64,000 bases of DNA. Origin: Octopus sinensis. Taxonomy: Eukaryota. Below, in pieces: positions 142 to 53,151 of the stretch (the first letter of the stretch is position 1; each line of letters opens with the position of its first letter). The translations under genes and the position numbers were made by a program. The stretch is taken from positions 1 to 64,000 of the forward strand of contig NW_021832385.1 in NCBI RefSeq assembly GCF_006345805.1, given 5' to 3'. The notes under the pieces were generated by a model that was given only the letters and a program-made list of their open reading frames with translations, was not told the origin of the DNA and searched no databases.

Positions 142-1295
142 TGTGGTACGGGTAATAAATGAGGTTTTTAAGTCGAGGGTGACATCAAGGAAGTTAGCTT
201 AGTTAAGTTGGATTCTAAGGTAATCCTAAGCCCTAGTTTTTAAAGAAGGTGTAAAGATTTTCCGGAACCCATCCGTGGTCCTGGGGTTTATTTTGTGGAG
301 GGCGAAAAGGCCGTCATCGCGGTAAAGACTACCGGAGAGGCCTGTGAATAGGGTTTTCAGCCTATGGAGGATGAAAAGGCCCACTAGGTCACTTATTTCA
401 GCAGAGTCGTTAGCACCCATGCTGACGTCGAAGGGGTCACAGATTTTTTGTTGATCCAGTGGGATCCGTCATAGAAAAGAAAAGTCTTACGTGCGTGGAG
501 GATCACATCTTGCTCGGCCTCGGTGGAAGACCTCCTGGCGAAGTTAATCGCGTCGATCAGCAAGCTCTCCGATATGGAGGCGTAGTAATCCTCGATATCC
601 AGTTGTAGGAATCGGGTGTTGCTTTTATCAGGTAAATCCCGGAACCAGGTTATTGCCTCGGAGGTCCTATTCCAGAGTGGAAGGGGTGAAGCTTCACGCA
701 TTTTTGGTAAAATCCTGTCCAGGATCTTCTTGCTGACGGATCCGATGTCAGACTTGGTTGGGTTAATCAAACGGACCGACGGTTTATTTTCGAAATGGTC
801 TTTGTGGTCTTTCAGGGTGAAGTGTGGGGACTTCACCCTCAGGGGTTCGGTTCGGTCATCGATTTTAAGGGAGGTGGAAATCTCTTTCCCGGCTAAATTG
901 GTTTCAGTTAGCGCTGCGTCGTCTACTTTCTTGTACTTAGCTGTGATGGCGTTATCGGCTAGTCTGTTGTAGGTATCCGGAGTCACCGCGTAAATATTTT
1001 TTGTCTTGTCCGAAGGGACATGGAGGTTCTGGGAGCTTTTCATTTTCGAAAGCTTCTCATTCAGTTCCGTTTGGAAAGGTAGGTTGACTCTCCTGAATTT
1101 GATGTTTTTTATCATGAGGAAGAGGTCTTCTTCAAACGGTTCAAGTAGGCTGTTGGTAGGAGGGGCCTTATTTGATTTGAAGCCGTACTTATCATTACTG
1201 GTAGATGCTACATCAGGATGGTCGAAGAAGAACGATCTCCATCGAATTCTTTTGATGAACTCATCAGTCCGTCTAATGAGGGCTTTTTGGTACTT
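142..1295 (-). mobile_element. Penelope-like element RT, truncated inverted copy of 4330-5480
   Basis: ORF 393..1355 has PLE RT motifs (SDKTKNIY, TLKDHKDHF, RLINPTKSDIG, QLDIEDYY). ORF 226..420 has MGANDSAEISDLVG and LYRDD. The stretch is the reverse complement of 4330-5480. Confidence 0.92.
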
Positions 1296-1448
1296 ATGTG
1301 TATATATGGATGCGCGCGCGCGTGTGTGTGTGTGTGTATGGGTACGCATGTACATGTGTATGTGCGTGTAGTTTGTAATCTATATGTATATGGTTGTGTA
1401 TGCGTATGTGGTGTATATATATATAGTATATATATGTGTAATATGTGA

Positions 1449-1484
<36 letters not shown>

Positions 1485-1669
1485 ATATAAAAGGGCTTAG
1501 TAAAATAAATACTTGCCGCATACTGAACTCATTAGAAATAGCAGCTAAAAAACTTTTTTAAAGCTATTTCTAATACTTAAAGAAAATCTCTCTCATATAT
1601 AGTGTTGCTTAATTCAACTCACAAAAGTTTGGGGGTAAGGACATCGAAAAATCAAATGCTAAGGTTATT

Positions 1670-1720
1670 TGAGAACGTACGTTCAAGATTAGTCAAAAAC
1701 AACACTTCATCATCAGCTCA
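1670..1720 (-). ncRNA. Type I hammerhead ribozyme, family A (one A missing from GAAA)
   Basis: Minus strand reads tgag-CTGATGA-stem II-GAA-CGTACG-TT-ctca. Confidence 0.65.
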
Positions 1721-2217
1721 GAAATTCCTTGGTTTGGATTTGGAAACACTGAAAATAAGAACATACCCTTTCGAGATCTGCTCGTAACTAACAGTGTCAA
1801 CAAATTCAAATAAGCAAGCGAAGAATCTCTGTTCTCGCCTTTCCACCAGCGTGGGTTAAAATCATCAAACACTATGCTTATTTCGGTAAAATCCGAAGCA
1901 TTAATCAGAGGAGAGATTAATTATAATTTCAACAATTGAGGGCAAAATTATTAATTATTAATCAATGTAATATTTCACCAGTGTTTCAAGTATGCAAAGG
2001 GACCATTCAAGGCGAATTCAAATTATTACATTATATAAAAGGGCTTAGTAAAATAAATTACTTTGCCGCATACTGAACTCATTAGAAATAGCAGCTAAAA
2101 AACTTTTTTAAAGCTATTTCTAATACTTAAAGAAAATCTCTCTCATATATAGTTTGCTTAATTCACTCACAAAAGTTTGGGGGTAAGGACATCGAAAAAT
2201 CAAATGCTAAGGTTATT

Positions 2218-2270
2218 TGAGAACGTACGTTTCAAGATTAGTCAAAAACAACACTTCTATCATCAGCTCA
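2218..2270 (-). ncRNA. Type I hammerhead ribozyme, family A
   Basis: Minus strand reads tgag-CTGATGA-26 nt-GAAA-CGTACG-TT-ctca. Stem I is tgag/ctca and stem III is the palindrome ACGTACGT. Confidence 0.82.
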
Positions 2271-2762
2271 GAAATTCCTTGGTTTGGATTTGGAAACACT
2301 GAAAATAAGAACATACCCTTTCGAAGATCTGCTCGTAACTAACAGTGTCAACAAATTCAAATAAGCAAGCGAAGAATCTCTGTTCTCCCCTTTCCACCAG
2401 CGTGGGTTAAAATCATCAAACACTATGCTTATTTCGGTAAAATCCGAAGCATTAATCAGAGGGAGATTAATTATAATTTCAACAATTGAGGGCAAAATTA
2501 ATTAATTATTAATCAATTTCACCAAGTGTTCAGTATGCAAAGGGACCATTCAAGGCGAATTCAAATTATTACATTATATAAAAGGGCTTAGTAAAATAAA
2601 TTACTTTGCCGCATACTGAACTCATTAGAAATAGCAGCTAAAAAACTTTTTTAAAGCTATTTCTAATACTTAAAGAAAATCTCTCTCATATATAGTGTTT
2701 GCTTAATTCAACTCACAAAAGTTTGGGGGTAAGGACATCGAAAAATCAAATGCTAAGGTTAT

Positions 2763-2815
2763 TGAGAACGTACGTTTCAAGATTAGTCAAAAACAACACT
2801 TCTATCATCAGCTCA
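2763..2815 (-). ncRNA. Type I hammerhead ribozyme, family A
   Basis: Same motif as 2218-2270. Confidence 0.82.
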
Positions 2816-3356
2816 GAAATTCCTTGGTTTGGATTTGGAAACACTGAAAATAAGAACATACCCTTCGAAGATCTGCTCGTAACTAACAGTGTCAACAAAT
2901 TCAAATAAGCAAGCGAAGAATCTCTGTTCTCCCCTTTCCACCAGCGTGGGTTAAAATCATCAAACACTATGCTTATTTCGGTAAAATCCGAAGCATTAAT
3001 CAGAGGGAGATTAATTATAATTTCAACAATTGAGGGCAAAATTAATTAATTATTAATCAATTTCACCAAGTGTTCAGTATGCATAATTAATGTATTAATT
3101 AATTAATTAATTAATGTATTAATTAATTAATTTTGCCCTCAATTGTTGAAATTATAATTAATCTCCCTCTGATTAATGCTTCGGATTTTACCGAAATAAG
3201 CATAGTGTTTGATGATTTTAACCCACGCTGGTGGAAAGGGGAGGAGAGACAGATTCTTCGCTTGCTTATTTGAATTTGTGACACTGTTAGTTACGAGCAG
3301 ATCTTCGAAAGGGTATGTTCTTATTCAGTGTTTCCAAATCCAAACCAAGGAATTTC

Positions 3357-3407
3357 TGAGCTGATGATGAAGTGTTTGTTTTGACTAATCTTGAAACGTA
3401 CGTCTCA
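3357..3407 (+). ncRNA. Type I hammerhead ribozyme, family A (1-nt deletion at the cleavage site)
   Basis: tgag-CTGATGA-...-GAAA-CGTACG-T-ctca. Confidence 0.65.
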
Positions 3408-3901
3408 AATAACCTTAGCATTTGATTTTCGATGTTCCTTACCCCCAAACTTTTGTGAGTTGAATTAAGCAAACACTTATATGAGAGAGATTTTCTTTAA
3501 GTATTAGAAATAGCTTTAAAAAAGTTTTTTTTTTAGCTGCTATTTCTAATGAGTTCAGTATGCGGCAAAGTAATTTATTTTACTAAGCCCTTTTTATAAT
3601 GTAATAATTTGAATTCGCCTTGAATGGTCCCTTTGCATACTGAACACTTGGTGTGAATTGATTAATAATTAATTAATTTTGCCCTCAATTGTTGAATTAT
3701 AATTATCTCCCTCTGATTAATGCTTCGGATTTTACCGAAATAAGCATAGTGTTTGATGATTTTAACCCACGCTGGTGGAAAGGGGAGAACAGAGATTCTT
3801 CGCTTGCTTATTTGAATTTGTTGACACTGTTAGTTACGAGCAGATCTTCGAAAGGGTATGTTCTTATTTTCAGTGTTTCCAAATCCAAACCAAGGAATTT
3901 C

Positions 3902-3954
3902 TGAGCTGATGATAGAAGTGTTGTTTTTGACTAATCTTGAAACGTACGTTCTCA
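3902..3954 (+). ncRNA. Type I hammerhead ribozyme, family A
   Basis: tgag CTGATGA tagaagtgttgtttttgactaatctt GAAA CGTACG TT ctca. Confidence 0.82.
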
Positions 3955-4136
3955 AATAACCTTAGCATTTGATTTTTCGATGTCCTTACCCCCAAACTTT
4001 TGTGAGTTGAATTAAGCAAACACTATATATGAGAGAGATTTTCTTTAAGTATTAGAAATAGCTTTAAAAAAGTTTTTTAGCTGCTATTTCTAATGAGTTC
4101 AGTATGCGGCAAAGTAATTATTTTACTAAGCCCTTT

Positions 4137-4181
<45 letters not shown>

Positions 4182-4329
4182 TCAATATATACACATATAT
4201 ATAATATATATATATACACACACATACGCATACACACACATATACATATATATACACTACACGCACATACACATGTACATGCGTACCCATACACACACAC
4301 ACACACGCGCGCGCGCATCCATATATACA

Positions 4330-6370
4330 CATAAGTACCAAAAAGCCCTCATTAGACGGACTGATGAGTTCATCAAAAGAATTCGATGGAGATCGTTCTT
4401 CTTCGACCATCCTGATGTAGCATCTACCAGTAATGATAAGTACGGCTTCAAATCAAATAAGGCCCCTCCTACCAACAGCCTACTTGAACCGTTTGAAGAA
4501 GACCTCTTCCTCATGAAAAAAACATCAATTCAGGAGAGTCAACCTACCTTTCCAAACGGAACTGAATGAGAAGCTTTCGAAAATGAAAAGCTCCCAGAAC
4601 CTCCATGTCCCTTCGGACAAGACAAAAAATATTTACGCGGTGACTCCGGATACCTACAACAGACTAGCCGATAACGCCATCACAGCTAAGTACAAGAAAG
4701 TAGACGACGCAGCGCTAACTGAAACCAATTTAGCCGGGAAAGAGATTTCCACCTCCCTTAAAATCGATGACCGAACCGAACCCCTGAGGGTGAAGTCCCC
4801 ACACTTCACCCTGAAAGACCACAAAGACCATTTCGAAAATAAACCGTCGGTCCGTTTGATTAACCCAACCAAGTCTGACATCGGATCCGTCAGCAAGAAG
4901 ATCCTGGACAGGATTTTACCAAAAATGCGTGAAGCTTCACCCCTTCCACTCTGGAATAGGACCTCCGAGGCAATAACCTGGTTCGGGATTTACCTGATAA
5001 AAGCAACACCCGATTCCTACAACTGGATATCGAGGATTACTACGCCTCCATATCGGAGAGCTTGCTGATCGACGCGATTAACTTCGCCAGGAGGTCTTCA
5101 CCGAGGCCGAGCAAGATGTGATCCTCCACGCACGTAAGACTTTTCTTTTCTATGACGGATCCCACTGGATCAACAAAAAATCTGTGACCCCTTCGACGTC
5201 AGCATGGGTGCTAACGACTCTGCTGAAATAAGTGACTAGTGGGCCTTTTCATCCTCCATAGGCTGAAAACCTATTCACAGGCCTCTCCGGTAGTCTTTAC
5301 CGCGATGACGGCCTTTTCGCCCTCCACAAATAAACCCCAGGACCACGGATGGGTTCCGGAAAAATCTTTACACCTTCTTAAAAACTTAGGCCTTAGGATT
5401 ACCTTAGAATCCAACTTAACTAAAGCTAACTTCCTTGATGTCACCCTCGACTTAAAAACCTCACTTATTACCCGTACCACAAACCGAATGAATCCCTTAA
5501 ATATATAGATATTAATCCAACCACCCCCAAAATATATTAGATAACCTAGTAAAAAGTGTCTCAATTAGAATTTCTAGCCTGTCCGCCACGGAAGATATCT
5601 TTAAGGCCGCAGCCCCCTATTACAACGAGGCCCTGGCCCGCAGGCTTCAAAGATAAGATTACCTATACTAGTATAGCCCCACGCCAACCCAGGAAAAATA
5701 GACGAAGACACATTAGCTGGTACAACCGTGAGGTCGCTACACTGTAGAAAAATCTTCTTCACTCTCCTACAGAAACACTTCCCCACCCAACATAAGTACT
5801 ACACTATCCTAAATAAGAACACTATTAGACTCTCCTACTCTACCACGCCCAATCTAGCCAGGAACCTAGCCAACAACAATGTGAAAAACTTAACATATCT
5901 ACTTTTTCCGAGCCCCATCCAACGTCCGATAGCAATTGCAACTGCCCTGATAAAACCACCTGCCCCCTCAACAACAACTGCCTACAGAGGGACCTAGTAT
6001 ATACATGCGAGGTAAGATCAGGCCCTGACGATAAAAGAAAATCCTACATCGAATGACGTCAAACAGCTTTAAGACCCGTTGGTACGCACACACACACTCG
6101 TTCCGGCGACAGGAAAATCCAACCAAACTACCCTCGCCGGCACATCTGGTACCTTAAAAGGAACTCCATCCCCTTCAAGACCAAGTGGAAACTACTACAG
6201 AAGGCGCGCTCGTACACAGGAGGCCATACTGCTGTGACCTCTGCATATCGGAGAGCCTAGAGATCTTGTTCGCCAAAGGCCCTCTCTTAACAAAATCTCA
6301 GAACACTCCCAAATTGTATGCATAAGAAGTATGCGAACTACAAGAACTATAGACCTACCCGGCAACCAGA
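4330..6370 (+). mobile_element. Penelope-like element ORF (RT + C-terminal GIY-YIG endonuclease), frameshifted; possibly Hydra-type clade
   Basis: RT motifs lie across ORFs 4273, 4583 and 5239 (NFLDVTLDL). From ~5933 the DNA reads NCNCPDKTTCPLNNNCLQRDLVYTCEV...SYI.MTSNSFKTRWYAH (Cys linker + GIY-YIG). The N-terminus abuts a CA/TA microsatellite. The clade call is inference. Confidence 0.9.
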
Positions 6371-6444: not shown

Positions 6445-7224
<780 letters not shown>

Positions 7225-10255: not shown

Positions 10256-11230
10256 ATTTGGCTCAAAAGCAACTAGCAAGGCCATGTCGGGGGACATGGA
10301 GCTAAGCACAGGGTGGTGTTCATGTAAAGAGTTCAGGCCACTTGAGGTCCAGGGAGGCTTTGAACAAAGCGGTCGTCGGCATCTTCACCATCTCGTCTGG
10401 CAGCTTGTTCCACGGATTCGCAACCCGGACGGAGAAAGCTCCTCTCCTTCGATTGAGATGAAATCGTCGCAGGTAGAGCTTTTCGGAATGACCCCGCAGC
10501 CGATGCTCTGGAGCAGGAGTGAAGAACAGCTCTTTCGAGAGGTTACACTTTCCGCTTATGATGTTGTGGGCGAGAATGAGATCACCACGGCGGCGGCGTT
10601 TTTCAAGAGAATAAAGGTTGAGCGTCCTCAGCCTTTCTTCGTAGGACAAATTTTTGAGACCGTGAACCATGCGGGTAGCCAGCTTCTGGACTCTTTCGAG
10701 ATGCTGTATGTCTTTGAGGAGATAAGGAGAAGAGGCTTGAATCCCATACTCAATATGGGTCTCACCAGCGTGACATAGAGTGGTAGGAATATGGCTGCTG
10801 TGAGCATTCCGAATGACCGCGAATCAAGACAGAATTCCGCGTGCTTGTTGGCAGCATGGACGCACTGAGCCGAAGGCGAAAAGGAGGAATCCACCAACAT
10901 ACCCAGGTCCTTTACCTGATCGGTCTCTCCAGCAGCAGACGACCGGCCCGAAATCAAGTTGAGTTGCAGGAGTAGAGCCGACAGGCAGATGACAGCACTT
11001 TGACACGTTCAGACACAGGTCCCAATCGTTAGACCACTTCCAAATTTGTGGAGGCATCGACGAAGATCCTCTATATTACCGCGAGGAGCGACCAGTTTGA
11101 TATCGTCGGCAAATAGAAGGGTGTGTTGTGTGAGGTCGTCGGGCAAGTCATTTATGAAGACTAAGAACAACAAGGGCCCAAGCACTGAACCTTGAGGCAC
11201 GCCACTGCTCGCACTGGAGATGTCGGACCG
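10231..11230 (-). mobile_element. 5'-truncated CR1-type LINE (RT C-terminal part, 3' UTR, (CTAA)n tail)
   Basis: [22 protein letters not shown], and LSYEERLRTLNLYSLEKRRRRGDLI...LRGH...FSVRVANPWNKLP. Tandem tail at 10231-10254. Confidence 0.92.
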
Positions 11231-11253
11231 CGAATAATATATATATATAGATA

Positions 11254-11321
<68 letters not shown>

Positions 11322-11466
11322 TATAATATATAATAATATATATTGATATATATATATGTATACATATATGATATATAATATATATATACATATATGAGAT
11401 ATATATATATATATATGATATAATATATGTATATTGATATATATATATATATTATATATATATTAT

Positions 11467-11509
<43 letters not shown>

Positions 11510-11804
11510 ATAGTTATCCGTAATAATGAAGGGTGAAATTAATTAATTTGAAAAATTATCAATTACACCAAGTAGTCTTCGGCATGTAAAAGCCTCATTC
11601 GAGGAAAATTTAAGTAATACTAAGCAATAAGGGTTTAGCAACGAGTTGCCTTACCACATACCGAATTTAGAAATAGCAGTCAAAGGTTATAGCTATTTCT
11701 TCCACTAAAAAGGGAGATCTCAGTAAAAACAGCATTTGGAAGGCAGACACAACAGGTAAGAGAGAATGAATTGACTGCAATCTATCATACATTTTTTTAG
11801 TTAT

Positions 11805-11909
11805 CCACGGACGTACGTTTCGAAATCAAGTTTTAAGGAAAGCATAAGAATTAAATATTAAATATTAAATAATTCTATCTTACCGAAACTTCTTTTCTCT
11901 TCAGCGTAG
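11805..11909 (-). ncRNA. Type I hammerhead ribozyme, family B
   Basis: Reverse complement of 12998-13102. Confidence 0.85.
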
Positions 11910-12400
11910 AATATATAATCATAAATGATTATATATTGAATTTTGAGATACCAGAAGGCACCAACTCAACTCAGTATCAGAGCGAGCTAGAATCCGCAAC
12001 TGGTATCACCGAATTCAATTTGTGAATGAAACGATTGTGTCAACAGCCCCTTCCACCCGCGTGTAGCCAAAACAAGATGCTGTGGTCATCTACTGAGATA
12101 AAATATGGTTATCCGTAATAATGAAGGGTGAAATTAATTAATTTGGAAAAATTATCAATTACACCAAGTAGTCTTCGCATGTAAAAGCCTCATTCGAGGA
12201 AAATTAAGTAATACTAAGCAATAAGGGTTTAGCAACGAGTTGCCTTACCACATACCGAATTTAGAAATAGCAGTCAAAGGGTTATAGCTATTTCTTCCAC
12301 TAAAAAGGGAGATCTCAGTAAAAACAGCATTTGGAAGGCAGACAAAAACAGGTAAGAGAGAATGAATTGACTGCAATCTATCATACATTTTTTTAGTTAT

Positions 12401-12504
12401 CCACGGACGTACGTTTCGAAATCAAGTTTTAAGGAAGCATAAGAATTAAATATTAAATATTAAATAATTCTATCTTACCGAAACTTCTTTTCTCTTCAGC
12501 GTAG
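12401..12504 (-). ncRNA. Type I hammerhead ribozyme, family B
   Basis: Reverse complement of 12998-13102. Confidence 0.85.
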
Positions 12505-12997
12505 AATACTATAATCATAAATGATTATATATTGAATTTTGAGATACCAGAAGGCACCAACTCAACTCAGTATCAGAGCGAGCTAGAATCCGCAACTGGT
12601 ATCACCGAATTCAATTTGTGAATGAAACGATTGTGTCAACAGCCCCTTCCCACCCGCGTGTAAGGCAACTCGTTGCTAAACCCTTATTGCTTAGTATTAC
12701 TTAAATTTTCCTCGAATGAGGCTTTTACATGCCGAAGACTACTTGGTGTAATTGATAATTTTTCCAAATTAATTAATTTCACCCTTCATTATTACGGATA
12801 ACCATATTTTATCTCAGTAGATGACCACAGCATCTTGTTTTGGCTACACGCGGTGGGAAGGGGCTGTTGACACAATCGTTTCATTCACAAATTGATTCGG
12901 TGATACCAGTTGCGGATTCTAGCTCGCTCTGATACTGAGTTGAGTTGGTGCCTTCTGGTATCTCAAAATTCAATAATATATTTTAGATTATAGTATT

Positions 12998-13102
12998 CTA
13001 CGCTGAAGAGAAAAGAAGTTTCGGTAAGATAGAATTATTTAATATTTAATATTTAATTCTTATGCTTTCCTTAAAACTTGATTTCGAAACGTACGTCCGT
13101 GG
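12998..13102 (+). ncRNA. Type I hammerhead ribozyme, family B (76-nt stem II)
   Basis: ctacg CTGAAGA gaaa..aagttt...gaatta...taattc...aaactt..tttc GAAA CGTACG TC cgtgg. The cleavage triplet is GUC. Confidence 0.87.
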
Positions 13103-13590
13103 ATAACTAAAAATGTATATAGATTGCAGTCAATTCATTCTCTTTACCTGTTTGTGTCTGCCTTCCAAATGCTTTTTTTACTGAGATCTCCCTTTTTAGT
13201 GGAAGAAATAGCTATAACCCTTTGACTGCTATTTCTAAATTCGGTATGTGGTAAGGCAACTCGTTGCTAAACCTTATTGCTTAGTATTACTTAAATTTTC
13301 CTCGAATGAGGCTTTTACATGCCGAAGACTACTTGGTGTAATTGATAATTTTTCCAAATTATTAATTTCACCCTTCATTATTACGGATAACCATATTTTA
13401 TCTCAGTAGATGACCACAGCATCTTGTTTTGGCTACACGCGGGTGGGAAGGGGCTGTGACACAATCGTTTCATTCACAAATTGAATTCGGTGATACCAGT
13501 TGCGGATTCTAGCTCGCTCTGATACTGAGTTGAGTTGGTGCCTTCTGGTATCTCAAAATTCAATATATAATCATTTATGATTATAGTATT

Positions 13591-13694
13591 CTACGCTGAA
13601 GAGAAAAGAAGTTTCGGTAAGATAGAATTATTTAATATTTAATATTTAATTCTTATGCTTCCTTAAAACTTGATTTCGAAACGTACGTCCGTGT
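13591..13694 (+). ncRNA. Type I hammerhead ribozyme, family B
   Basis: Same motif; the 3' strand of stem I reads cgtg. Confidence 0.82.
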
Positions 13695-14180
13695 GATAAC
13701 TAAAAATGTATGATAGATTGCAGTCAATTCATTCTCTTACCTGTTTGTGTCTGCCTTCCAAATGCTGTTTTTACTGAGATCTCCCTTTTTAGTGGAAGAA
13801 ATAGCTATAACCCTTTGACTGCTATTTCTAAATTCGGTATGTGGTAAGGCACTCGTTGCTAAACCCTATTGCTTAGTATTACTTAAATTTTCCTCGAATG
13901 AGGCTTTTACATGCCGAAGACTACTTGGTGTAATTGATAATTTTTCCAAAATAATTAATTTCACCCTTCATTATTACGGATAACCATATTTTATCTCAGT
14001 AGATGACCACAGCATCTTGTTGGCTACACGCGGGTGGGAAGGGGCTGTTGACACAATCGTTTCATTCACAAATTGAATTCGGTGATACCAGTTGCGGATT
14101 CTAGCTCGCTCTGATACTGAGTTGAGTTGGTGCCTTCTGGTATCTCAAAATTCAATATATAATCATTTATGATTTAGTTT

Positions 14181-14282
14181 CTACGAAGAGAAAAGAAGTT
14201 TCGGTAAGATAGAATTATTTAATATTTAATATTTATTCTTATGCTTTCCTTAAAACTTGATTTCGAAACCGTACGTCCGTGG
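14181..14282 (+). ncRNA. Degenerate hammerhead, family B (CTG of the core deleted)
   Basis: ctacgaagag instead of ctacgctgaagag, and an extra C after GAAA. Confidence 0.5.
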
Positions 14283-14949
14283 ATAACTAAAAAAATGTAT
14301 GATAGATTGCAGTCAATTCATTCTCTCTTACCTGTGTTGTCTGCCTTCCAAATGCTGTTTTTACTGAGATCTCCCTTTTTAGTGGAAGAAGAATAGCTAT
14401 AACCCTTTGACTGCTATTCTAAATTCGGTATGTGGTAGGCAACTCGTTGCTAAACCCTTATTGCTTAGTATATATATATTATATATATATGTATTATATA
14501 TATATATGATATTTATATATATGATATATCTATATTATGATATATATATATATCCGGTTCCGTTTTTCAACAGAGGGAGACGTATTGCCTCTTCTCTGTG
14601 AAAAAGTTTGCATAGATCGGCGAAATAACCCCTGTAGTTGCAAAACGTAAAACTCTAAGTCATAGAGATCACTACAACACTTTGGTTTTAAAAATATTTT
14701 AAATATATATATATAAATATATACATATACACAGTAATTTTCATTTTCGCCGAAACGCACATGGTGCAAAAATAACTGAATCAAGTTATCTCCTGCAAGA
14801 AAGAAAAAAGAAGCATCTCTCTGAAAAAAATCCCGTAACCAAAAAAAAATCCAGACCACATTGTTGATTAAGTATCACTTTCATCTATTTCATATTTTAT
14901 TTATTATTCTATTTTATCCTTCACTTAGGCCCACATCTTAGTTAAAGTT

Positions 14950-16650
14950 GCGATCGTCATTTTGTTTGTTTACATTTTCAATATCTGTTCTCGATATATA
15001 ATTTTTCAGATACTCTATCTTCTAATTAGCCTTAGATTAAATTAAATAACGTTAATATTACCCACACTCTAATTAATTTTTGTTTGTTTACATTTTCAAT
15101 ATCTGTTCTCGATATAATAATTTCTCAGATACTCTATCTCTAATTAGCCTTAAGATTAAATTAAATAACGTTTAATTATTGATAACGTCTAATTAGCCTT
15201 AAGATTAAATTAAATAACGTTAATATTGTTTTATATTGTTAATAATTATTGTAATTAGCCTTAAGATTAATTAATAACGTTTAATATTGTTTTAATTGTT
15301 AATAATTTTTCAGATACTCTATCTTCTAATTAGCCTTAAGATTAAATTAAATAACGCTTAATACTACCCACACTCTAATATAATTTTTGTTGTTTACATT
15401 TTCATATCTGTTCTCGATATAATAATTTTTCAGATACTCTATCTTCTAATTAGCCTTAAGATTAAATAAATAACGTTTAATATGATACCGTCAAATTAGC
15501 CTTAGGATTAAATTAATAACGTTTAATATTGTTTAATATTGTTAATAATTATGTTAATTAGCCTTAAGATTAAATTAAATAAAGTTTAATATTGTTTTAA
15601 TATTGTTAATAATTTTTCAGATACTCTATCTTCTAATTAGCCTTACGATTAAATTAAATAACGTTTAATATTACCCAACCCTTAATATAATTTGTTTGTT
15701 TACATTTTCAATATCTGTCTCGATATAATTTTTCAGAAGATACCCTATCTTCTAATAGCCTTAAGATTAAATAAATAACGTTTAATATTAATAACGTCTA
15801 ATTAGCCTTAGGATTAAATTAAATAACGTTTATATTGTTTTAATATTGTTAATAATTATTGTTAATTAGCCTTAGGATTAAATTAAATAACGTTTAATAT
15901 TGTTTAATATTGTTAATAATTATTGTTAATTAGCCTTAAGATTAAATTAAATAACGTTTAATATTGTTTTAATATTGTTAATAATTCTTCAGATATTCTA
16001 TCTTCTAATTAGCCTTAAGATTAAATTAAATAACGTTTAATATTACCCACACTCTAATATAATATTAACATTGCTAATATATTTTCAGATACTCTATCTC
16101 CTAATTAGCCTTAAGATTAAATAACGTTTTTACCCACACTCTAATATAATATTAATATTGCTAATATATTTTCAGATACTCTATCTTCTAATTAGCCTTA
16201 AGATTAAATTAAATAACGTTTAATATTACCCACACTCTAATATAATATTAACATTGCTAATATATTTTCAGATACTCTATCTCCTAATTAGCCTTAAGAT
16301 TAAATAACGTTTTTACCCACACTCTAATATAATTTAATATTGCTAATATTTTCAGATACTCCATCTCCCTTAGCCTTAAGATTAAATAACGTTTTTTTTT
16401 ACCCACACTCTAATATAATATTAATATTGCTAATATATTTTCAGATACTCTATCTCCTAATTAGCCTTAAGATTAAACAACGTTTTTACCCACACTCTAA
16501 TATAATATTAATATTGCTAATACATTTTCAGATACTCTATCCCCTAATTAGCCTTAAGATTAAATAACGTTTTTACGTTTTTTACCCACAAATTTAATAT
16601 TGTTAATATTTCTTTTTCAAGTACTCTATCTTCTAATTAGCCTTAATATC
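14950..16650. repeat. AT-rich complex minisatellite directly upstream of LINE ORF1
   Basis: Repeated core CAGATACTCTATCTTCTAATTAGCCTTAAGATTAAATTAAATAACGTTTAATATT with variable linkers. Confidence 0.92.
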
Positions 16651-24336: not shown

Positions 24337-24689
24337 ATCGTTGCATAGACGTTTTTATGTGTATGTATAGATATATATATATATTGGTGTGTGAGTTAGT
24401 GTATGTATTTAGATATGGTTATATATATTTAGTTATATGTGTATGAGCATGTGTGTATATATAGTTTATTTATTTATTTTTTTATTTAAAAAATTTTTTT
24501 TTTGTACATCTTTAAATATGAGAACTTTAATAATAAGTTTCTTTATATTCAATTGTTTATAGGGTTTATTTTAGATTATATATTGATTATATATAGATTA
24601 TATATAGATTATATATATTTATATTTTTCATTGATAATTTTATTATTTTAAACTTATATTTTAATATATTGATATTTTAGATCGAAAAT

Positions 24690-24732
24690 CCACCTGACGA
24701 ATGTCATTGAAGACATGAAACGATTGTAGTGG
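24690..24732 (+). ncRNA. Type I hammerhead ribozyme, family F
   Basis: ccac CTGACGA atgtc-attgaa-gacat GAAA CGATTG TA gtgg; stems I and II are perfectly paired. Confidence 0.9.
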
Positions 24733-24966
24733 CGGTTTATTTCTTTATATTAAAAATTTTTATGTATTGATTAAGTCTTTCCTTGTTTGTTTTGCAAAGT
24801 AGTGGTTTTGTCTCGAATTAATATTATATAATATTTTACTATAAAATTGGATTTAATCCTAAATATGATTTTTCCCTGTAAATTTGGATTTATTCCCTAA
24901 TATTTATTATTATTTAATATATTGATAATTTTGTATATTGAGTGTAATACCTCAATTTCGTAAATT

Positions 24967-26532
24967 ATGGAATTTACAGGTAAGATAGAACCGCTATTTT
25001 GGGATTCATCTTTGAAAGATATTCCTATACCTTCTAGAAAGGAATTTATTTTGAAATTTATTAATAATGTTAAAGGTTTTATTTCTAGAATTAAATGGAA
25101 AGCTTATTACTATGATTTTTATTTATTTAATGATAATGATAGTAGGAATGATAATTTTACCTCTAAATTTAAATCTAGAAAGGAGCCTCCACTTAATAAA
25201 GATTTACAATTACTAGAAGATAATATATGGAAGGTAGTAAAAAATATTGAATTCTATAAATACCCAAATAGAAATAATGAATATTTGAGAAACTTAGCAA
25301 TTAAAATTAAAGATATGAGAAATATGGATGGTATTATAGTACAATCTGATAAAACTAGGAATCTATATAAATTAGATGTTAAATTATATGATAAACTCTT
25401 AGGGAAAGAAATAATTAAAAAATATAAAATTGTTCCAGATTATATACTTTATAATATTAATAAGGCCTCTAAATTAGTAATGTTAAAATATGAATTGGAT
25501 AATAAAACTGAACCTTATGTACCTTTGCACCTTAGAATTACTCTTAAAGACCATAAAGATAATTTTTATTCAGACCCTAAAGTTAGATTAATTTGCCCAT
25601 GTAAATCTGACCTAGGTAAATTAAGTAAATTTATTTTAGATAAATATATCAATAAATTAAATAAACTTAATTATTTAAAATTATGGTTTAGTAATAACAA
25701 TACATTGAAATGGTTTAATAATATTAAAGATAAAAATCGTTATAAATTTATTCAAATAGATATAGATAATTATTATTCTTCTATTAATGAAATTGTGTTT
25801 AATAAAGCACTTATTTTCGCAATGAATAAAGTGGGAATGTCAATTGAAGAAGTTAATGTAATTAAAATGGCTAGGAAATCGCTCATTAAATATAAAAATA
25901 AATTATGGTCTAGGAATGATACTAGAGATTGTTTTGATATACCGATGGGAGCACCAGATTCTGCACAAGCTACTGATTTAGTAGGTATTTTTCTTTTATC
26001 TGAACTCCAATTAGAAAATCTTAAGATAGAGGGTGGCTTATATAGAGATGATCTTCTACTAATTACAAAGAATTGTACTAATAGGAATCTAGAAGTATAT
26101 AAGAAGAAACTATATAGTTTCTTTAAAAGATATGGTTTAAGTATTACTATATATAAGGAGAATTATAATGTTAATTATTTAGATGTTAATTTTAATCTAA
26201 TTACAGGTAAAACACAACCATATCATAAAATTAATGTGAACCTTAGATATATAAATGTTAATAGTAATCACCCACATTCTATAAAAAAATCGTTGATTAA
26301 TAATATAAGTAAACGTATTTCATTACTCTCTTATGATATAGAGATTTTTAATAAACATGCTACTTATTATAATGAGGCCCTTAGAGGGGCAGGTTATAAT
26401 AGGAATATTAAATTTTATAATATTAAGGATACAGATTTAACTAATAATTTTCAAGATAATTATAATAATATATATAATCGTTGCATAGACGTTTTTATGT
26501 GTATGTATAGAGATATATATATTGGTGTGTGA
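24967..26532 (+). CDS. Penelope-like reverse transcriptase, 521 aa, uninterrupted but lacking the GIY-YIG domain
   Basis: SLKDIPIPS, SDKTRNLY, TLKDHKDNF, QIDIDNYYS, FDIPMGAPDSAQATDLVG, GGLYRDD, NYLDVNF, SNHPHSIKK. Confidence 0.92.
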   Translation: MEFTGKIEPLFWDSSLKDIPIPSRKEFILKFINNVKGFISRIKWKAYYYDFYLFNDNDSRNDNFTSKFKSRKEPPLNKDLQLLEDNIWKVVKNIEFYKYPNRNNEYLRNLAIKIKDMRNMDGIIVQSDKTRNLYKLDVKLYDKLLGKEIIKKYKIVPDYILYNINKASKLVMLKYELDNKTEPYVPLHLRITLKDHKDNFYSDPKVRLICPCKSDLGKLSKFILDKYINKLNKLNYLKLWFSNNNTLKWFNNIKDKNRYKFIQIDIDNYYSSINEIVFNKALIFAMNKVGMSIEEVNVIKMARKSLIKYKNKLWSRNDTRDCFDIPMGAPDSAQATDLVGIFLLSELQLENLKIEGGLYRDDLLLITKNCTNRNLEVYKKKLYSFFKRYGLSITIYKENYNVNYLDVNFNLITGKTQPYHKINVNLRYINVNSNHPHSIKKSLINNISKRISLLSYDIEIFNKHATYYNEALRGAGYNRNIKFYNIKDTDLTNNFQDNYNNIYNRCIDVFMCMYRDIYIGV

Positions 26533-26825
26533 GTTAGTGTATGTATTTAGATATGGTTATATATATTTAGTTATATGTGTATGAGCATGTGTGTATATAT
26601 AGTTTATTTTTATTTTTATTTTTTTTTTTTGTACATCTTTAAATATGAGAATTTTAATAATAGGTTTCTTTATATTCAATTGTTTATAGGGTTTATTTTA
26701 GATTATATATTGATTATATATAGATTATATATAGATTATATATAGATTATATATATTTATATTTTTCATTGATAATTTTATATTTTAACTTATATTTTAA
26801 TATATTGATATTTTAGATCGAAAAT

Positions 26826-26869
26826 CCACCTGACGAATGTCATTGAAGACATGAAACGATTGTGTGTGG
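26826..26869 (+). ncRNA. Hammerhead, family F, 3' copy with altered cleavage site
   Basis: Core and stem II match 24690, but ...cgattgtgtgtgg replaces ...cgattgtagtgg. Confidence 0.7.
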
Positions 26870-26975
26870 CGGTTTATTTCTTTATATTAAAAATTTTTAT
26901 GTATTGATTAAGTCTTTCCTTTCCTGTTTGTTTTGCAAAGTAGTGGTTTTGTCTCGAATTAATATTATATATATG

Positions 26976-31624: not shown

Positions 31625-31718
<94 letters not shown>

Positions 31719-31883
31719 AGATGGCTAGCAGCAGGCTGTTTCGCCTCATACCGAAGGAATTAGAAACGGCAGTCAAAGACCGTTTTTTCCATTTTCTATA
31801 AGTGAGATTCCAAAAACGAAGCCCTTACGGCTCACATACACAAAACCGGAGTGGCAAATATACGAAAGCAATCACTTACCGTT

Positions 31884-31950
31884 ATAGCGAACACGTGTTT
31901 CTGGATCACAAACATAGAAAAAGTAGTTTGAATTCCGTCATCAGCGCTAT
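31884..31950 (-). ncRNA. Type I hammerhead ribozyme, family C
   Basis: Minus strand reads atagcg CTGATGA cgga..caaac...gtttg..tcca GAAA CACGTG TT cgctat; stem I is 6 bp. Confidence 0.85.
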
Positions 31951-32433
31951 ATTCGATAGCTTTACCAAATGCCACCAGCCCTCACTTCTGACCCAGCGAC
32001 ATCAGATAGTGGGGGGAAGTGCGCAGATGTTAAAACTAAGTAACGACTGGGAACGTAAATTTTCCCTCCAAAATCCTGCCATGCGCGCCTTCTGGGTAAT
32101 CGTAATGGAATGAGGATCCCACATGGTAATGCAATAAAATGGTAAATAATTTTCCTGTGGTTTTTCATGTAACCAACAATTATTTACCGGTAAATTTCGG
32201 TATGTAAATACGACAAATTAATTGTCAGGACCTTTGTAAGGTTCAGTAAATAGTAAAGAAAATAAGATGGCTAGCAGCAGGCTATTTCGCCTCATACCGA
32301 AGGAATTAGAAATGGCAGTCAAAGACCGTTTTTTTCCATTTTCTATAAGTGGAGATTCCAAAAACGAAGGCCCTTACGGCTCACATACACAAAACCGGAG
32401 TGGCAAATATACGAAAGCAATCACTTACCGTTA

Positions 32434-32500
32434 ATAGCGAACACGTGTTTCTGGATCACAAACATAGAAAAAGTAGTTTGAATTCCGTCATCAGCGCTAT
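32434..32500 (-). ncRNA. Type I hammerhead ribozyme, family C
   Basis: Identical to 31884-31950. Confidence 0.85.
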
Positions 32501-32983
32501 ATTCGATAGCTTTACCAAATGCCACCAGCCCTCACTTCTGACCCAGCGACATCAGATAGTGGGGGGAAGTGCGCAGATGTTAAAACTAAGTAACGACTGG
32601 GAACGTAAATTTTCCCTCCAAAATCCTGCCATGCGCGCCTTCTGGGTAATCGTAATGGAATGAGGAATCCACATGGTAATGCAATAAACATGGTAAATAA
32701 TTTTCCTGTGGTTTTTCATGTAACCAACAATTATTTACCGATAAATTTCGGTATGTAAATACGACAAATTAATTGTCAGGACCTTTGTAAGGTTCAGTAT
32801 ATAGTAAAGAAAATAAGATGGCTAGCAGCAGGCTATTTCGCCTCATACCGAAGGAATTAGAAATGGCAGTCAAAGACCGTTTTTTCCATTTTCTATAAGT
32901 GGAGATTCCAAAAACGAAGACCCTTACGGCTCACATACACAAAACCGGAGTGGCAAATATACGAAAGCAATCACTTACCGTTA

Positions 32984-33049
32984 ATAGCGAACATTATTTC
33001 TGGATCACTAACATAGAAAAAGTAGTTTGAATTCCGTCATCAGCGCTAT
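32984..33049 (-). ncRNA. Hammerhead, family C, stem III palindrome destroyed
   Basis: Plus strand has gaacattatttc in place of gaacacgtgtttc. Confidence 0.55.
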
Positions 33050-33697
33050 ATTCGATAGCTTTACCAAATGCCACCAGCCCTCACTTCTGACCCAGCGACA
33101 TCAGATAGTGGGGGGAAGTGCGCAGATGTTAAAACTAAGTAACGACTGGGAACGTAAATTTTCCCTCCAAAATCCTGCCATGCGCGCCTTCTGGGTAATC
33201 GTAATGGAATGAGGAATCCACATGGTAATGCAATAAAAATGGTAAATAATTTTCCTGTGGTTTTTCATGTAACCAACAATTATTTACCGGTAAATTTCGG
33301 TATGTAAATACGACAAATTAATTGTCAGGACCTTTGTAAGGTTCAGTAAATAGTAAAGAAAATAAGATGGCTAGCAGCAGGCTATTTCGCCTCATACCGA
33401 AGGAATTAGAAATGGCAGTCAATGACCGTTTTTTCCATTTTCTATAAGTGGAGATTCCAAAAACGAAGGCCCTTACGGCTCACATACACAAAACCGGAGT
33501 GGCAAATATACGAAAGCAATCACTTACCGTTAATAGCGAACACGTGTTATATACGTATATACATATATATAATATATATATATATTATATATATATACAT
33601 ATATATACGTATATACATATATATATATATATTATGATATATATGATATATATATATATATATTATATAATATATATATATATATATTATATATATA

Positions 33698-39849: not shown

Positions 39850-40700
39850 ATTCCAAGACTGAACACTATCCCCCCCCCAGTTGTAATTGTAGGATTAGAT
39901 CAAATTGTCCGGTATCTGGTCGTTGTTCGGTCCAAAATGTAATTTATAAATGCACGATAACTTCTAACAATAGCTTTCTTTATTTCGGATGTTCAGTAGA
40001 TTTTAAAAAACGTCTCAACAATCATTTTTCCTCTTTGAGACTAAAACATAAGGCAGGTCGCACTACACTATCTAGCAAAATTTGGGAACTAAAAACAAAT
40101 AATATATGATTCAACCTAAAATGGGATATAGTTAGAAGGGCGAAACCTTATAGAAATAGTAGGGAAGGTTGTCAACTTTGTTCTATGGAAACTTATGAAA
40201 TTTTAAAGCATCGAAGTAATAAAATCTGTTGAATAATCGTCTGGAGTTGGGAGCATCTTGCATACATTCCACAACTCGAACGTTTAAATACTTTAAATAA
40301 AAATTTCAACTTTTATTATAATAATATTAAGAAATATACTATACTAGCCTTCAACTTAACTTTCATAGATGACTAGAATAACTTCACTGTAATCTTGAAA
40401 TTGGAACTCTTCCTAAATCTAATCTAGTTTAAAATTTAAAGCTGTAGTTTTGGTCAGTTAGCGACTGAACTTCACAACCTCATATGTTCTTAAAATTTAA
40501 ATCTACATCTTTATCTGTATATCTACCTTCTCTAAAATGTTACTACTTGATTTGAAAGCTTTTATATTATTGGAAAACCTATATAATTGGCTGAAGAGCA
40601 TTCAGCATCTTAAATCTGCTGTAATTCTTACAACTTTTAATAAAATGTTGTAGTACGAAACAATTGTACCAAATTACCGGAGTCATTCTTGTTGCTATTT
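39850..40700 (+). mobile_element. 5'-truncated Penelope-like element: GIY-YIG domain + 3' UTR
   Basis: From ~39880 the DNA reads CNCRIRSNCPVSGRCSVQNVIYKCTI...SYFGCS..FKKRLNNH...LSSKIWELK...W.I...KPY...CQLC..E. Confidence 0.85.
40587..40672 (+). ncRNA. Type I hammerhead ribozyme, family G (branched 59-nt stem II)
   Basis: ttgg CTGAAGA ...cagca/tgctg...tacaac/gttgta... GAAA CAATTG TA ccaa. Confidence 0.78.
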
Positions 40701-40928
40701 TTGATTATATATACGTATATCTATATATACATATATATGTATAGATATATACATATATATATGTATATATACATATATATATATGTAAATATATATACAT
40801 ATTTATATATATACATATATATATGTATATGTATACATATATTTATATATATATATATGTGTGTATATGTACACATATATTTATATATATACATAAACAA
40901 GAAAAAAGCAACAAGAATGGATTTGTTG

Positions 40929-41017
40929 TTCAGTACAATTGTTTCATACGAAGAACAGTTTTATTAAAAGCTGCAAATATTGCAGCAAATACAAGTGTCC
41001 CGTATTCATCAGCCAAA
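40929..41017 (-). ncRNA. Type I hammerhead ribozyme, diverged relative of family G
   Basis: Minus strand reads tttgg CTGATGA atacg...gctgca/tgcagc...cgtat GAAA CAATTG TA ctgaa. Confidence 0.78.
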
Positions 41018-42965
41018 ATACATATGAGTTTTCCAAACATCCTAGTGGGTGAGGCTACACTCATGAAGTTATCGAAGAGAGTTCTATAAAAAGCAAATTT
41101 AGATTGTAAGCAGACTTCAAAAGTTCTCTAATGATGCACAGATTTATAAAAGGTTTTTAAAAAGTTTGTTAGTTTCACAGAAAAGGTAAATCCATCCATA
41201 ATAATGTAGGTGTAATTTCCGGAGATATGAGGAGATATTTCATACTCAGAGACGATGAATTTATCCATAACAAAGTAGGTATAATTTCCTGATATATGAG
41301 AAGATGCTGATCACATTGTGAAATGAACAGAAATGTGATCAGCATTGAAACTTTTGTATCATCTGCATAACTTGTGATCGTGGCTCTCTGCATGGCTGAG
41401 GGCATGTCTGAGAGGGCCATTACGAACAGCAGTGGTCCCAGAACAGTGCCTTGCGGAACACCGCTCACTATTTGCATGTCATTGGAGGTGGCCCCATTGG
41501 CTACTACCACCTGACTTCTATCCTTCAGAAAGTCATGAAGCCATTCTCCCAATTTTCCAACTATGCCAAGATCACGCTTTTTTTTGACATATCATTCCAT
41601 GATCGACTTTATCAAAGGCCTTTGCAAAGGCGAGATATATCACTTCCAAATTTAAGTGGTTGAGCAGCTGTTTCAGCACCCAGTCATAGCGTTGTAAGAG
41701 CTGTGTGAAGCAGCTTCTTCCTGATCGGAAACCATGTTGGGTGTCGGGCAGCAAGTCATTTTCTTCAAGGAAGGCGATTAGTTTTCTTCTGACTATTTGT
41801 TCCATGACCTTGCTGATGTGTGAGGTTAGAGAGATAGGTCTGTAGTTCTTGGCCTCCGCTCTGCTATCTCCATTATGAATAGGGCATATTTTACCCTCCT
41901 TCAGTTTTTTTGAAAATTTACCAGTTGCAACGAAGCTCTGAAAGAGGGGCTGCAGTGGTCTGGCTAGGACTCGCTTACATACTTTTAGAAGGATTGCTGG
42001 GAATCCATCGGGGCCAGTAGCTGAGTTTGGGTTCATTTCATCTATAGCCTTTATTACATCGTCTTCCTTTATATCGATGTAATCAATCATCATTGCCTCT
42101 ATTTTTATATCTGCAGTAAAGAAGTCAGTTGGATTACTGACTTGAAAATGCCCTAGGAGTGGAGTGAAAATACTTTTCAATTGCTCATTTATCCTCATCG
42201 GATTTCCTGTGAGTGTACCATCTTTTTCGAAGAGTGGCTCTATCCTGCAGTGCACTGAAGCTGTTTATTTGGCAAACTTGTAGAAAAATCTGGGGTTAGA
42301 TTTTATATTGTCTATAGCCCAGGCTTCTTTGTCTGCTCTTTCTTGTCCATGGGAGAGTTGCAGACTTTTTTCAATTTCCAGCAGTTGTATTTTCAGGCAG
42401 GACTTTTCACTGCTTTCAATGTGTTTGTTTAGGCGATTTGAAACTTTTGTATCTGGGGATTTTGTTCTTGTGTACAATGGCCTTTCTCTCTGGGACACAT
42501 TTGCAGCATATGGCTTGCATTACAGACATGAATTGTTAAAGTTTCATGTCAATGTCCGGTGAGGAGAAACATTTAGGCCAGTTTGTTTGAGGATCTCTTT
42601 CTCAATTTGTTTCCAGTTTGCCTTATGGAAGTTCAAGCTGGAAAGATTCTGAGAGTTTCTTGTAGGTTGCATGTCCATGCTTTCCTTTAGCCCGTACATG
42701 GTCAGCTCTACTATGTTGTAATCTGAGAGTAGTGTTGGTGTCACTTTCACATTATGGATGAGATCCATATTATTTGTGAAGCAGAGATCCAGTATGTTAC
42801 CTGCCCTCATTGGTTGGAGTACTATTTGCTCCATGTACAAAGTGTTGATGAGGTTCAGGAGGGACCTCACCTGTCCTTGTTTGCATCGTATCATTCCTGG
42901 GAGAGAAAGGCCTTCAGGCCATCTGACATTGGGCAGATTGGAGTCTTCCATAAGAAGTACACATA

Positions 42966-45744: not shown

Positions 45745-45775
<31 letters not shown>

Positions 45776-45779
45776 TAAA

Positions 45780-47660: not shown

Positions 47661-47836
47661 TTATGTGTATGCATATTATTATGTATATACTTATATATAT
47701 GTATATTTAGGTGTATATACACTTATATGTATATGTAAATATGTACATATGCATATTTTTGTATATGTGTACCTTGTTTAATATTCATATTTGCATTTTA
47801 TATCTTCATTTTATATCTTTATAATTGTACTTTATA

Positions 47837-47962
47837 ATTTCTGACGAGGCCTTGAGATATATATATAAGTAACTCATTTTTAATTGCATATTACCTCAAT
47901 ACATCTGACTAATATGGGCATAATGAGATACTCTTATCTACAGGCTGAAATAGCTGTAAGAT
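47837..47962 (+). ncRNA. Type I hammerhead ribozyme, family H (99-nt stem II)
   Basis: attt CTGACGA ggcct...aggct GAAA TAGCTG TA agat. Confidence 0.78.
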
Positions 47963-48441
47963 CCATTTTATATGTATTATTCTTATGTTATTATCTTACT
48001 TATTGATGTATATTGTTATATTGTTTTATTCTGTCTTATTCTGCTGGATTTGTATGTTCCTATTTAATCTAAAAAATTAGTTAATAAATTATATGAATTG
48101 GTATTATCTGGAAATTGAGGACTGAAAGAAATCTATTCCTCCATTTTCTTACTTTGTATAATGAATTTGAGGTAAAACATTTTACCTTCCCCATATAATA
48201 CAATAAATCAATTAATTGCATTGCAATTCTTAGCATTTATGTATTAGCCTTCTGGGTACTTTACTGGCAGTATATTGGATAAATGATATCCCATAGTGGG
48301 TTACACTCATAACCCCTATCTCACTTTGTACTTTTAAGTTATTTTTCTGAGGAATTTGAATTGCTAATACTTATGTACATGAAGTATCTACTCAGATGGT
48401 ATAAGTGAATGCATCCAAGTATAGTACATCAATTCCACAGG

Positions 48442-53129: not shown

Positions 53130-53151
53130 GAAAAAAGGATTTCCTTTTTTC

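What the first reader, a model, noticed from the sequence alone, without database searches (positions are those of the whole stretch)
11512..14469. Array B: ORF-less fold-back concatemer of ~595 nt ribozyme monomers in (TA)n
Seen: about five monomers with no coding partner. Orientation switches at ~12660 (cccgcgtgta/gtaaggcaac, sharing gta) between different phases of the monomer. The two arms point outward in ribozyme sense. Canonical GUC site. Inference: a non-LTR retrozyme-like element longer than the few-hundred-nt monomers I know of. Outward-pointing arms fit two priming events on opposite target strands joined by microhomology. Read-through transcription would give over 1 kb of dsRNA.
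Basis: partly seen in the sequence, partly recalled or inferred. Interest (0 to 1): 0.78.

Follow-up and report, generated by a model that had tools for sequence, protein, structure and literature searches.

The report
Two-armed hammerhead retrozyme, Penelope-style insertion
This is one copy of a widespread, protein-free 600-letter repeat whose hammerhead motif is predicted to cut its own RNA, and its two back-to-back arms, each ending at one of two fixed sites, likely record a borrowed Penelope-type enzyme copying a single RNA, probably a circle, from both cut ends of the DNA.

Summary
The array has 4.9 units of a 600-nt ORF-less monomer. Each unit has a type I hammerhead motif (one of five is damaged). 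The arms are joined head-to-head by a 3-nt GTA overlap and lie in (TA)n. The genome has 1,213 exact ribozyme-core matches. In 98 loci, 63 are two-armed and always head-to-head. In 53 of these, one arm ends about 195 nt and the other about 298 nt after the cleavage site; 1 has both ends at one site and 9 could not be scored or end elsewhere. Junction phases scatter. Both arms share locus-private substitutions, so one template made both. An autonomous Penelope-like element (PLE) here leaves the same one-of-each footprint with ends 42 nt apart. Best reading: a non-LTR retrozyme inserted by PLE two-site target priming, probably on an RNA circle. The class is known, and 600 nt lies within the published range. 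Cleavage, circles, the helper PLE and read support for this junction are not shown. An A>G (editing) bias did not replicate. The scan noted similar arrays before on other DNA of this genome.

The parts
11237..11512 (.). (TA)n target, left half
11513..12662 (-). left arm, 1.9 monomers; outer (3') end at site B (phase 300), inner (5') end at phase 343
11800..11913 (-). type I hammerhead motif, intact; cleavage predicted after 11810
12396..12509 (-). type I hammerhead motif, intact; cleavage predicted after 12406
12660..12662 (.). head-to-head junction, 3-nt GTA microhomology between phases 343 and 158
12660..14468 (+). right arm, 3.0 monomers; outer (3') end at site A (G192, then TAT shared with the target)
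12994..13107 (+). type I hammerhead motif: 6-bp stem I plus a 2x2 loop and 4 further pairs, CUGAAGA, 75-nt stem II, GAAA, 2-bp stem III with GUAC loop (palindromic ACGUACGU), GUC site after 13097
13201..13201 (+). locus-private A>G at monomer phase 108 (also 12298 on the left arm); in 5 of 5 covering units and in no other of 98 loci
13205..13397 (+). conserved structured domain (phases about 110-300): hairpin, multibranch stem enclosing unpaired site A, hairpin, then unpaired site B; likely the RT binding and start region
13587..13700 (+). hammerhead motif with a 1-nt insertion in stem I; site after 13689
14176..14287 (+). hammerhead motif with damaged core (probably assembly indels); site after 14277
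14469..14553 (.). (TA)n target, right half

Best explanation
The array is one insertion of a dispersed, protein-free 600-nt hammerhead-bearing repeat (a non-LTR retrozyme) that was likely written into a (TA)n tract by a borrowed Penelope-like reverse transcriptase-endonuclease copying one RNA molecule, probably a circle, from both cut DNA ends. SHOWN here: dispersal; (TA)n flanks; head-to-head geometry; two fixed outer ends about 103 nt apart, one per arm; scattered inner junctions with short microhomology; one shared haplotype over both arms; arms that run through the cleavage site for up to 14 units. INFERRED steps: (1) an array is transcribed, the hammerheads cut out monomers (possibly as dimers through the palindromic stem III) and a host ligase closes them; (2) a PLE protein, possibly a dimer, binds the structured domain and cuts both strands of (TA)n; (3) one 3' end primes at site A, the preferred site, and the other primes at site B on the same RNA; (4) each cDNA rolls round the template for a variable number of turns; (5) the two cDNAs have the same polarity and cannot anneal, so they are joined through 0-5 nt of microhomology or a short filler and second strands are filled in; (6) if the second priming fails, a single arm ending at A results. 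Odds: retrozyme mobilised by a PLE about 0.9; both arms from one template about 0.85; template circular about 0.65.
For: 1,213 exact 22-nt core matches in G000, reversed-pattern control 0. Three locus sets, 98 loci, read partly by eye. Top-similarity set, 32 loci: 24 two-armed, 21 A+B. All contig-C1 loci listed with the core, 26 further loci: 15 two-armed, 13 A+B. Replicate, 40 loci: 24 two-armed, 19 A+B, 1 A+A. Total 53 A+B, 1 A+A, 0 B+B, 9 with one end elsewhere or unseen (53 of 54, p 3e-15). Single-armed loci: 33 of 35 end at A. All 37 junctions mapped by script are head-to-head; 16 of 37 have 2 nt or more of microhomology against 18% by chance (p 3e-4), and 11 have fillers. Arms of one locus differ at 8 of 1,365 variable-site comparisons (0.6%) against 8.2% between loci; 0 of 20,000 permutations did as well; 5 of 1,198 site-by-arm cells were mixed. 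The window's A108G is in 5 of 5 units, both arms, and in 1 of 98 loci. Internal controls: a young autonomous PLE in G000 makes fold-backs in (TA)n with one end at each of two sites 42 nt apart (at least 9 of 44 loci); a second PLE family shows the same with about 175 nt (5 loci). A purified PLE cuts both strands, prefers AT-rich DNA and starts at two internal RNA sites (PMC11167929). Short-read contigs of X1 and X4 show other head-to-head joints, and (TA)n loose ends lie at site B in X1 and at site A in X14 and X16.
Against: No autonomous PLE carrying this domain was found: not in the ORF family beside array A (30 loci), the Neptune-like family (44 loci), the window's other PLE ends or 20 loci picked by the shared motif. 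So the PLE link rests on footprint, not homology. The 103-nt spacing exceeds the published 30-40-nt tail. One locus (L240) has both ends near A and nine have an end elsewhere or unseen. Homogeneous arrays would also come from uncleaved transcripts of a homogeneous source array. Neither cleavage nor circles are shown; 8 of 9 Xenopus retrozymes tested did not cleave, and hammerhead cleavage was dispensable for PLE insertion in vitro. No listed contig bridged this locus's own junction (the list was cut and the runs may be other individuals). Covariation in the conserved domain is weak (term -0.04; 9 of 43 pairs with a two-sided change; sequences were picked by a motif in one strand).
Confidence: 0.72

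Rival explanations
1. Same PLE two-site priming, but the template is an uncleaved linear multimeric transcript of a young, homogeneous source array, and the hammerhead plays no part.
For: Unprocessed RNA was the dominant substrate of a PLE in vitro. It explains continuity through the cleavage site and shared haplotypes in both arms.
Against: New private substitutions are fixed in every unit of long arrays (13 of 13 in L236, 10 of 10 in L061 and L042), which needs a one-monomer bottleneck. Only 5 of 1,198 cells were mixed.
Confidence: 0.18
2. Arrays grew at DNA level after insertion of a short pLTR-like piece (unequal crossover or slippage), as proposed for satellite-like retrozymes.
For: Proposed in bioRxiv 10.64898/2026.07.22.740005. 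It would also homogenise units.
Against: Two inverted arms would have to expand separately yet keep one haplotype, fixed outer ends and non-integer lengths. Pieces under one unit have no direct repeat to expand from.
Confidence: 0.05
3. The inversion comes from fold-back self-priming on an antisense template, as hypothesised for rotifer Penelope elements.
For: PMC3846280 passages describe palindromes at inverted junctions. A few junctions here are nearly in phase (L079 101/105, L226 235/230, L249 86/86).
Against: Most junctions join unrelated phases, and self-priming does not predict one A end plus one B end.
Confidence: 0.03
4. The fold-back is a long-read assembly artefact (chimeric or hairpin read).
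For: Unplaced contig with indel-rich units. Own junction not seen in the listed contigs.
Against: The flanks are not mirrored, the two arms end at different fixed sites, 62 other loci share the plan, and short-read contigs show like joints.
Confidence: 0.02

Closest known systems
Metazoan non-LTR retrozymes (PMC7229834; bioRxiv 10.64898/2026.07.22.740005)
   Same: Tandem non-coding units with a type I hammerhead each, low GC (35%), dispersed arrays, short stem III with a tetraloop, PLEs in the same genome.
   Different: 600 nt (170-400 nt in the first paper; within 51-972 bp in the second); 75-nt stem II. Head-to-head two-armed insertions with fixed ends are not described: 'inverted' occurs 0 times in the first main text and once, in a reference, in the second. 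Supplements not seen.
EN+ Penelope-like elements (Neptune, Hydra, Naiad, Poseidon; PMC8557442, PMC11167929, PMC3846280)
   Same: 5' truncation, an inverted 5'-truncated copy head-to-head, (TA)n targeting, a 'tail' on one end from two RT start sites, hammerhead upstream of the start sites.
   Different: No ORF; both arms are multimers of one short unit; tail about 103 nt, not 30-40; no homologous autonomous partner found.
Non-autonomous Chlamys derivatives such as MRC1 (passage in PMC8557442)
   Same: Non-coding PLE passengers with multicopy head-to-tail insertions.
   Different: Those resemble an autonomous family at the 3' end, and most Chlamys lack canonical hammerheads.
LINE-1 twin priming (search listing only, PMC2837659; details recalled)
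   Same: Two target ends prime two cDNAs that are joined by microhomology into an inversion.
   Different: In L1 the second primer anneals at variable internal sites of a linear poly(A) RNA; here both starts are fixed and both arms can exceed one unit.

Membership tests
Metazoan non-LTR retrozyme | Type I hammerhead motif in each tandem unit | tested here: met
   3 of 5 intact, 1 with a stem I insertion, 1 damaged; 1,213 exact cores in G000; not detected by Rfam
Metazoan non-LTR retrozyme | Tandem units, no protein | tested here: met
   Longest open frame 58 aa; window PLE proteins hit 3 of 63 fetched stretches around arrays, none joined to an array
Metazoan non-LTR retrozyme | GC under 50%, no LTR pair | tested here: met
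   209 of 600 bases G+C; arrays end directly in (TA)n; PBS and PPT not searched for
Metazoan non-LTR retrozyme | Unit length in the reported range | tested here: met
   600-607 nt: above 150-450 bp, inside 51-972 bp
Metazoan non-LTR retrozyme | Dispersed, mobile copies | tested here: met
   98 loci examined on many contigs; mean pairwise identity 97.6% among 149 units including assembly indels
Metazoan non-LTR retrozyme | Self-cleavage of the RNA | not testable with these tools
   Fold only
Metazoan non-LTR retrozyme | Expression as linear and circular monomers | not testable with these tools
   Only contigs were available
Metazoan non-LTR retrozyme | Target-site duplication, when present | tested here: inconclusive
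   Not discernible in (TA)n
Autonomous EN+ PLE | ORF with RT and GIY-YIG endonuclease | tested here: not met
PLE-mobilised element (works like) | Inverted 5'-truncated copy, head-to-head | tested here: met
   63 of 98 loci; 37 of 37 scripted junctions head-to-head
PLE-mobilised element (works like) | Two fixed 3' ends (tail) | tested here: met
   53 of 63 two-armed loci have one A and one B end
PLE-mobilised element (works like) | Tail 30-40 bp long | tested here: not met
   About 103 nt; autonomous PLEs of this genome show 42 and about 175 nt
PLE-mobilised element (works like) | (TA)n target preference | tested here: met
   Nearly all outer ends run into (TA)n
PLE-mobilised element (works like) | Homology to the pLTR of an autonomous PLE | tested here: inconclusive
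   None found in the families and 20 motif loci examined; most PLE families of G000 were not examined

The most novel reading that the evidence does not exclude
A PLE enzyme performs double rolling-circle target-primed reverse transcription on one ribozyme-made RNA circle. It starts at two unpaired sites that a conserved RNA fold holds about 103 nt apart, so the RNA, not the protein, sets tail length. A whole superfamily (16,031 motif matches) has captured that fold without any surviving coding partner, and RNA-level changes in the circle, including A-to-I edits, are fixed into every unit of the new array. The circle-and-two-starts part alone is about 0.55 likely; the editing part is weak because the bias did not replicate.
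Probability: 0.2. Interest if true: 0.8.

Novelty: new variant of a known kind. Interest (0 to 1): 0.55.

Why it matters
Two questions are called open in the papers read: how PLEs make their inverted and tailed insertions (PMC8557442), and which enzyme and template spread animal retrozymes (PMC7229834; bioRxiv 2026). This family ties them together. It gives a short RNA with two mapped start sites, a strict one-of-each rule and single-template arrays, which can be tested directly with a purified PLE protein. The class itself and its proposed PLE dependence are in print, and the scan has noted the same pattern in sister families.

Tried and rejected
Rfam scan: no hammerhead hit; the miRNA hits are palindromes and microsatellites. 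Expression: no RNA holder listed; two runs guessed to be RNA (X14, X16) had contigs on the stretch but may be DNA, so nothing is concluded. Read support for this junction: none among the pieces shown, 8,247 not shown. Joints near 12270-12312 to 13197-13229 were set aside as hairpin-loop variants, not inversions. Helper search: the ORF next to array A has its own unrelated pLTR in other copies; the Neptune-like family lacks the domain; 20 motif-picked loci had no ORF joined to the domain. A-to-I write-back (lead from note e1-8807236): private array-fixed variants were A>G 13, T>C 2 of 20 in 58 loci (p 7e-4; singletons 17 vs 16). In 40 new loci they were A>G 4, T>C 5 of 13 (p 0.60), and pooled 16 vs 7 of 30 (p 0.01, four from one locus). 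No clear neighbour or pairing preference. Not claimed. Exact-match junction mapping broke at SNPs and was redone with tolerance. No pile-up of 5' ends at the cleavage site, and none convincing at the opposite start site (by eye; histogram). Fine end mapping crashed and gave no result. Literature: searches listed no paper on two-armed retrozyme insertions; subscription papers and supplements were not covered.

Full report
Observation. The array is as described. A minus-sense arm (11513-12662, 1.9 units) and a plus-sense arm (12660-14468, 3.0 units) overlap by GTA and are flanked by (TA)n. No frame exceeds 58 aa. Each unit has a type I hammerhead motif: 6-bp stem I, CUGAAGA, a 75-nt stem II, GAAA, a 2-bp stem III with a GUAC loop, and GUC. 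Three of five are intact, one has an extra base in stem I and one has a damaged core. Rfam reports none of them. ACGUACGU in stem III is palindromic, which would allow dimeric cleavage as reported for amphibian retrozymes (PMC7229834 passages); this is inference.

Family. The window is the start of an unplaced contig of a 2.72-Gb genome, G000. Earlier notes call it probably octopus; I did not test this. A 22-nt core pattern has 1,213 exact matches, control 0. Its 93 matches on contig C1 fall in 27 loci, which suggests about 350 core-bearing loci (my estimate), plus shorter stubs without the core. Units are mostly 600 or 607 nt, 97.6% alike on average including assembly indels (149 units). The run search listed 20 rows from 12 studies holding the stretch or part of it; I laid four.

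Architecture. I examined 98 loci in three sets: 32 best matches including the window, the 26 other C1 loci with the core, and 40 picked from two further searches with other haplotypes. Classification was by BLAST phases read by eye. Two tiny second arms (L086, L091) were recognised by eye, and three extra neighbouring pieces in L069, L078 and L079 were left out of the count. 63 loci are two-armed, all head-to-head. Outer ends cluster at site A (phase about 190-204, mostly 195) and site B (about 287-305, mostly 298). 53 loci have one of each, 1 has both near A (L240), none has two B ends, and 9 have one end elsewhere, cut by a contig end or not fetched. Of 35 single-armed loci, 33 end at A. The window's array is B (left) plus A (right). 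Inner junction phases cover the whole unit. Of 37 scripted junctions (sets 1 and 2), 16 have 2-5 nt of microhomology, 10 have 0-1 nt and 11 have fillers; chance expectation for 2 nt or more is 18%. Arms reach 14 units and pass through the cleavage site, so the template was a ligated circle or an uncleaved multimer, not a cut linear monomer.

One template. At 50 recurrent variable sites, the two arms of a locus differ in 8 of 1,365 comparisons (34 of 37 loci had enough shared sites; 7 of the 8 are at one site in an AT repeat that aligns poorly). Between loci the figure is 8.2%. Private substitutions are fixed in all units of long arrays and in both arms. The window carries A108G in 5 of 5 units; it is in no other of 98 loci, and nearly all short-read depth at 12298 in X1 and X4 shows the other letter. 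Polishing would erase, not create, such locus-wide private letters (inference). A one-monomer bottleneck fits rolling-circle copying best, but a homogeneous source array cannot be excluded.

Link to Penelope-like elements. PLEs are described as having inverted 5'-truncated copies, a 30-40-bp tail at one end and (TA)n preference (PMC8557442 passages; PMC3846280 passages). A purified PLE cuts both strands of AT-rich DNA and starts at two internal RNA sites that define the tail (PMC11167929, parts 1-2 of 4). In G000 a young autonomous PLE (long RT frames; labelled Neptune-like from a recalled linker motif, no tree made) gives fold-backs with one end at each of two sites 42 nt apart in at least 9 of 44 loci, two pairs of which overlap. 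A second family (Hydra-like, label also recalled) shows ends about 175 nt apart in 5 loci. So the one-of-each rule is a PLE footprint in this genome, and tail length varies by family. No homologous helper was found.

Start-site domain. Phases about 110-300 fold into a hairpin, a multibranch stem whose 27-nt unpaired stretch holds site A, and a further hairpin followed by unpaired site B. Array A and the array at 31716-33548 share it. A 17-base gapped motif from it has 16,031 matches, control 7. Nine diverged members keep the fold, and the seven genomic relatives, picked by eye for reaching past A, run into (TA)n near site B. Covariation is weak, so the structure is conserved but not proven.

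Against and unresolved. No cleavage, circle or expression data. Own junction not seen in the listed contigs, although other head-to-head joints appear in short-read contigs of X1 and X4 and (TA)n ends at A and B appear in X1, X14 and X16, which argues against a long-read artefact for the family. The A>G bias seen in the first 58 loci (13 vs 2) failed in the next 40 (4 vs 5). 23 of 30 pooled private variants are A>G or T>C, which polymerase wobble errors could also give (inference).

Comparison. The element meets every testable feature of metazoan non-LTR retrozymes (PMC7229834: passages and the whole Discussion; bioRxiv 10.64898/2026.07.22.740005: parts 1-3 of 5 and a term search). It works like a PLE passenger but is not an autonomous PLE. 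Those papers propose PLE mobilisation and tandem cDNA from circles but do not describe two-armed insertions with fixed ends in the text I read. Their supplements were not seen and could bear on this. Six searches listed no such description. Earlier AI notes on sister arrays in this genome reached the same reading; my main reading was written down before the first look-up, and those notes are not independent evidence.

Verdict. Real, of a known kind, with an unusually clear mechanistic footprint: new variant of a known kind, interest 0.55.

Noticed in passing
window 142-5481 (array A, 1490-4140): Both arms of array A end at site A, and the inversion extends through the flanking microsatellite and PLE ORF at the contig start. 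This differs from the A+B rule and may be a palindromic duplication or an assembly artefact. The ORF has its own unrelated pLTR in other copies.
   Followed up: partly
window 6725-6942: Small fold-back of an array-A relative in (TA)n, with one end at each site.
   Followed up: no
window 24337-26971, 31716-33548, 40570-41036, 47769-52751, 52983-53298, 56572-58618: At least six more hammerhead-bearing families, with (near-)palindromic stem III and often fold-back form. The 56572-58618 array is 73% like the pLTR of the PLE at 47769 over 210 nt.
   Followed up: partly
L154, L155 and window 45772-47700 (-): Young Neptune-like PLE family with long open frames, a 42-nt tail and no hammerhead found by my pattern.
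   Followed up: partly
window 48160 and 48333; loci: Autonomous Hydra-like PLE with two ends about 175 nt apart, far above the published 30-40 bp.
   Followed up: partly
L204:3387 onward: A retrozyme-domain arm runs at site A directly into the hammerhead-bearing pLTR of the ORF family beside array A: a template switch or an insertion at site A.
   Followed up: no
L060: Four private A>G changes within 70 nt (phases 132-201), fixed in all covering units, resemble an editing cluster.
   Followed up: partly
L043 flanks; L042 5' flank: L043 has a short inverted copy of its left flank on the right. L042's 5' end joins inverted sequence resembling the array-A family.
   Followed up: no
run X1, joint 12405 to 12496: One contig skips 90 nt covering almost exactly the hammerhead core.
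   Followed up: no
window 43119-44188; 14998-16576; 10257-11230: A mariner-like transposase fragment, an AT-rich satellite with 87, 183 and 307-bp periods, and a LINE fragment left of the array; labels by eye from translations.
   Followed up: no
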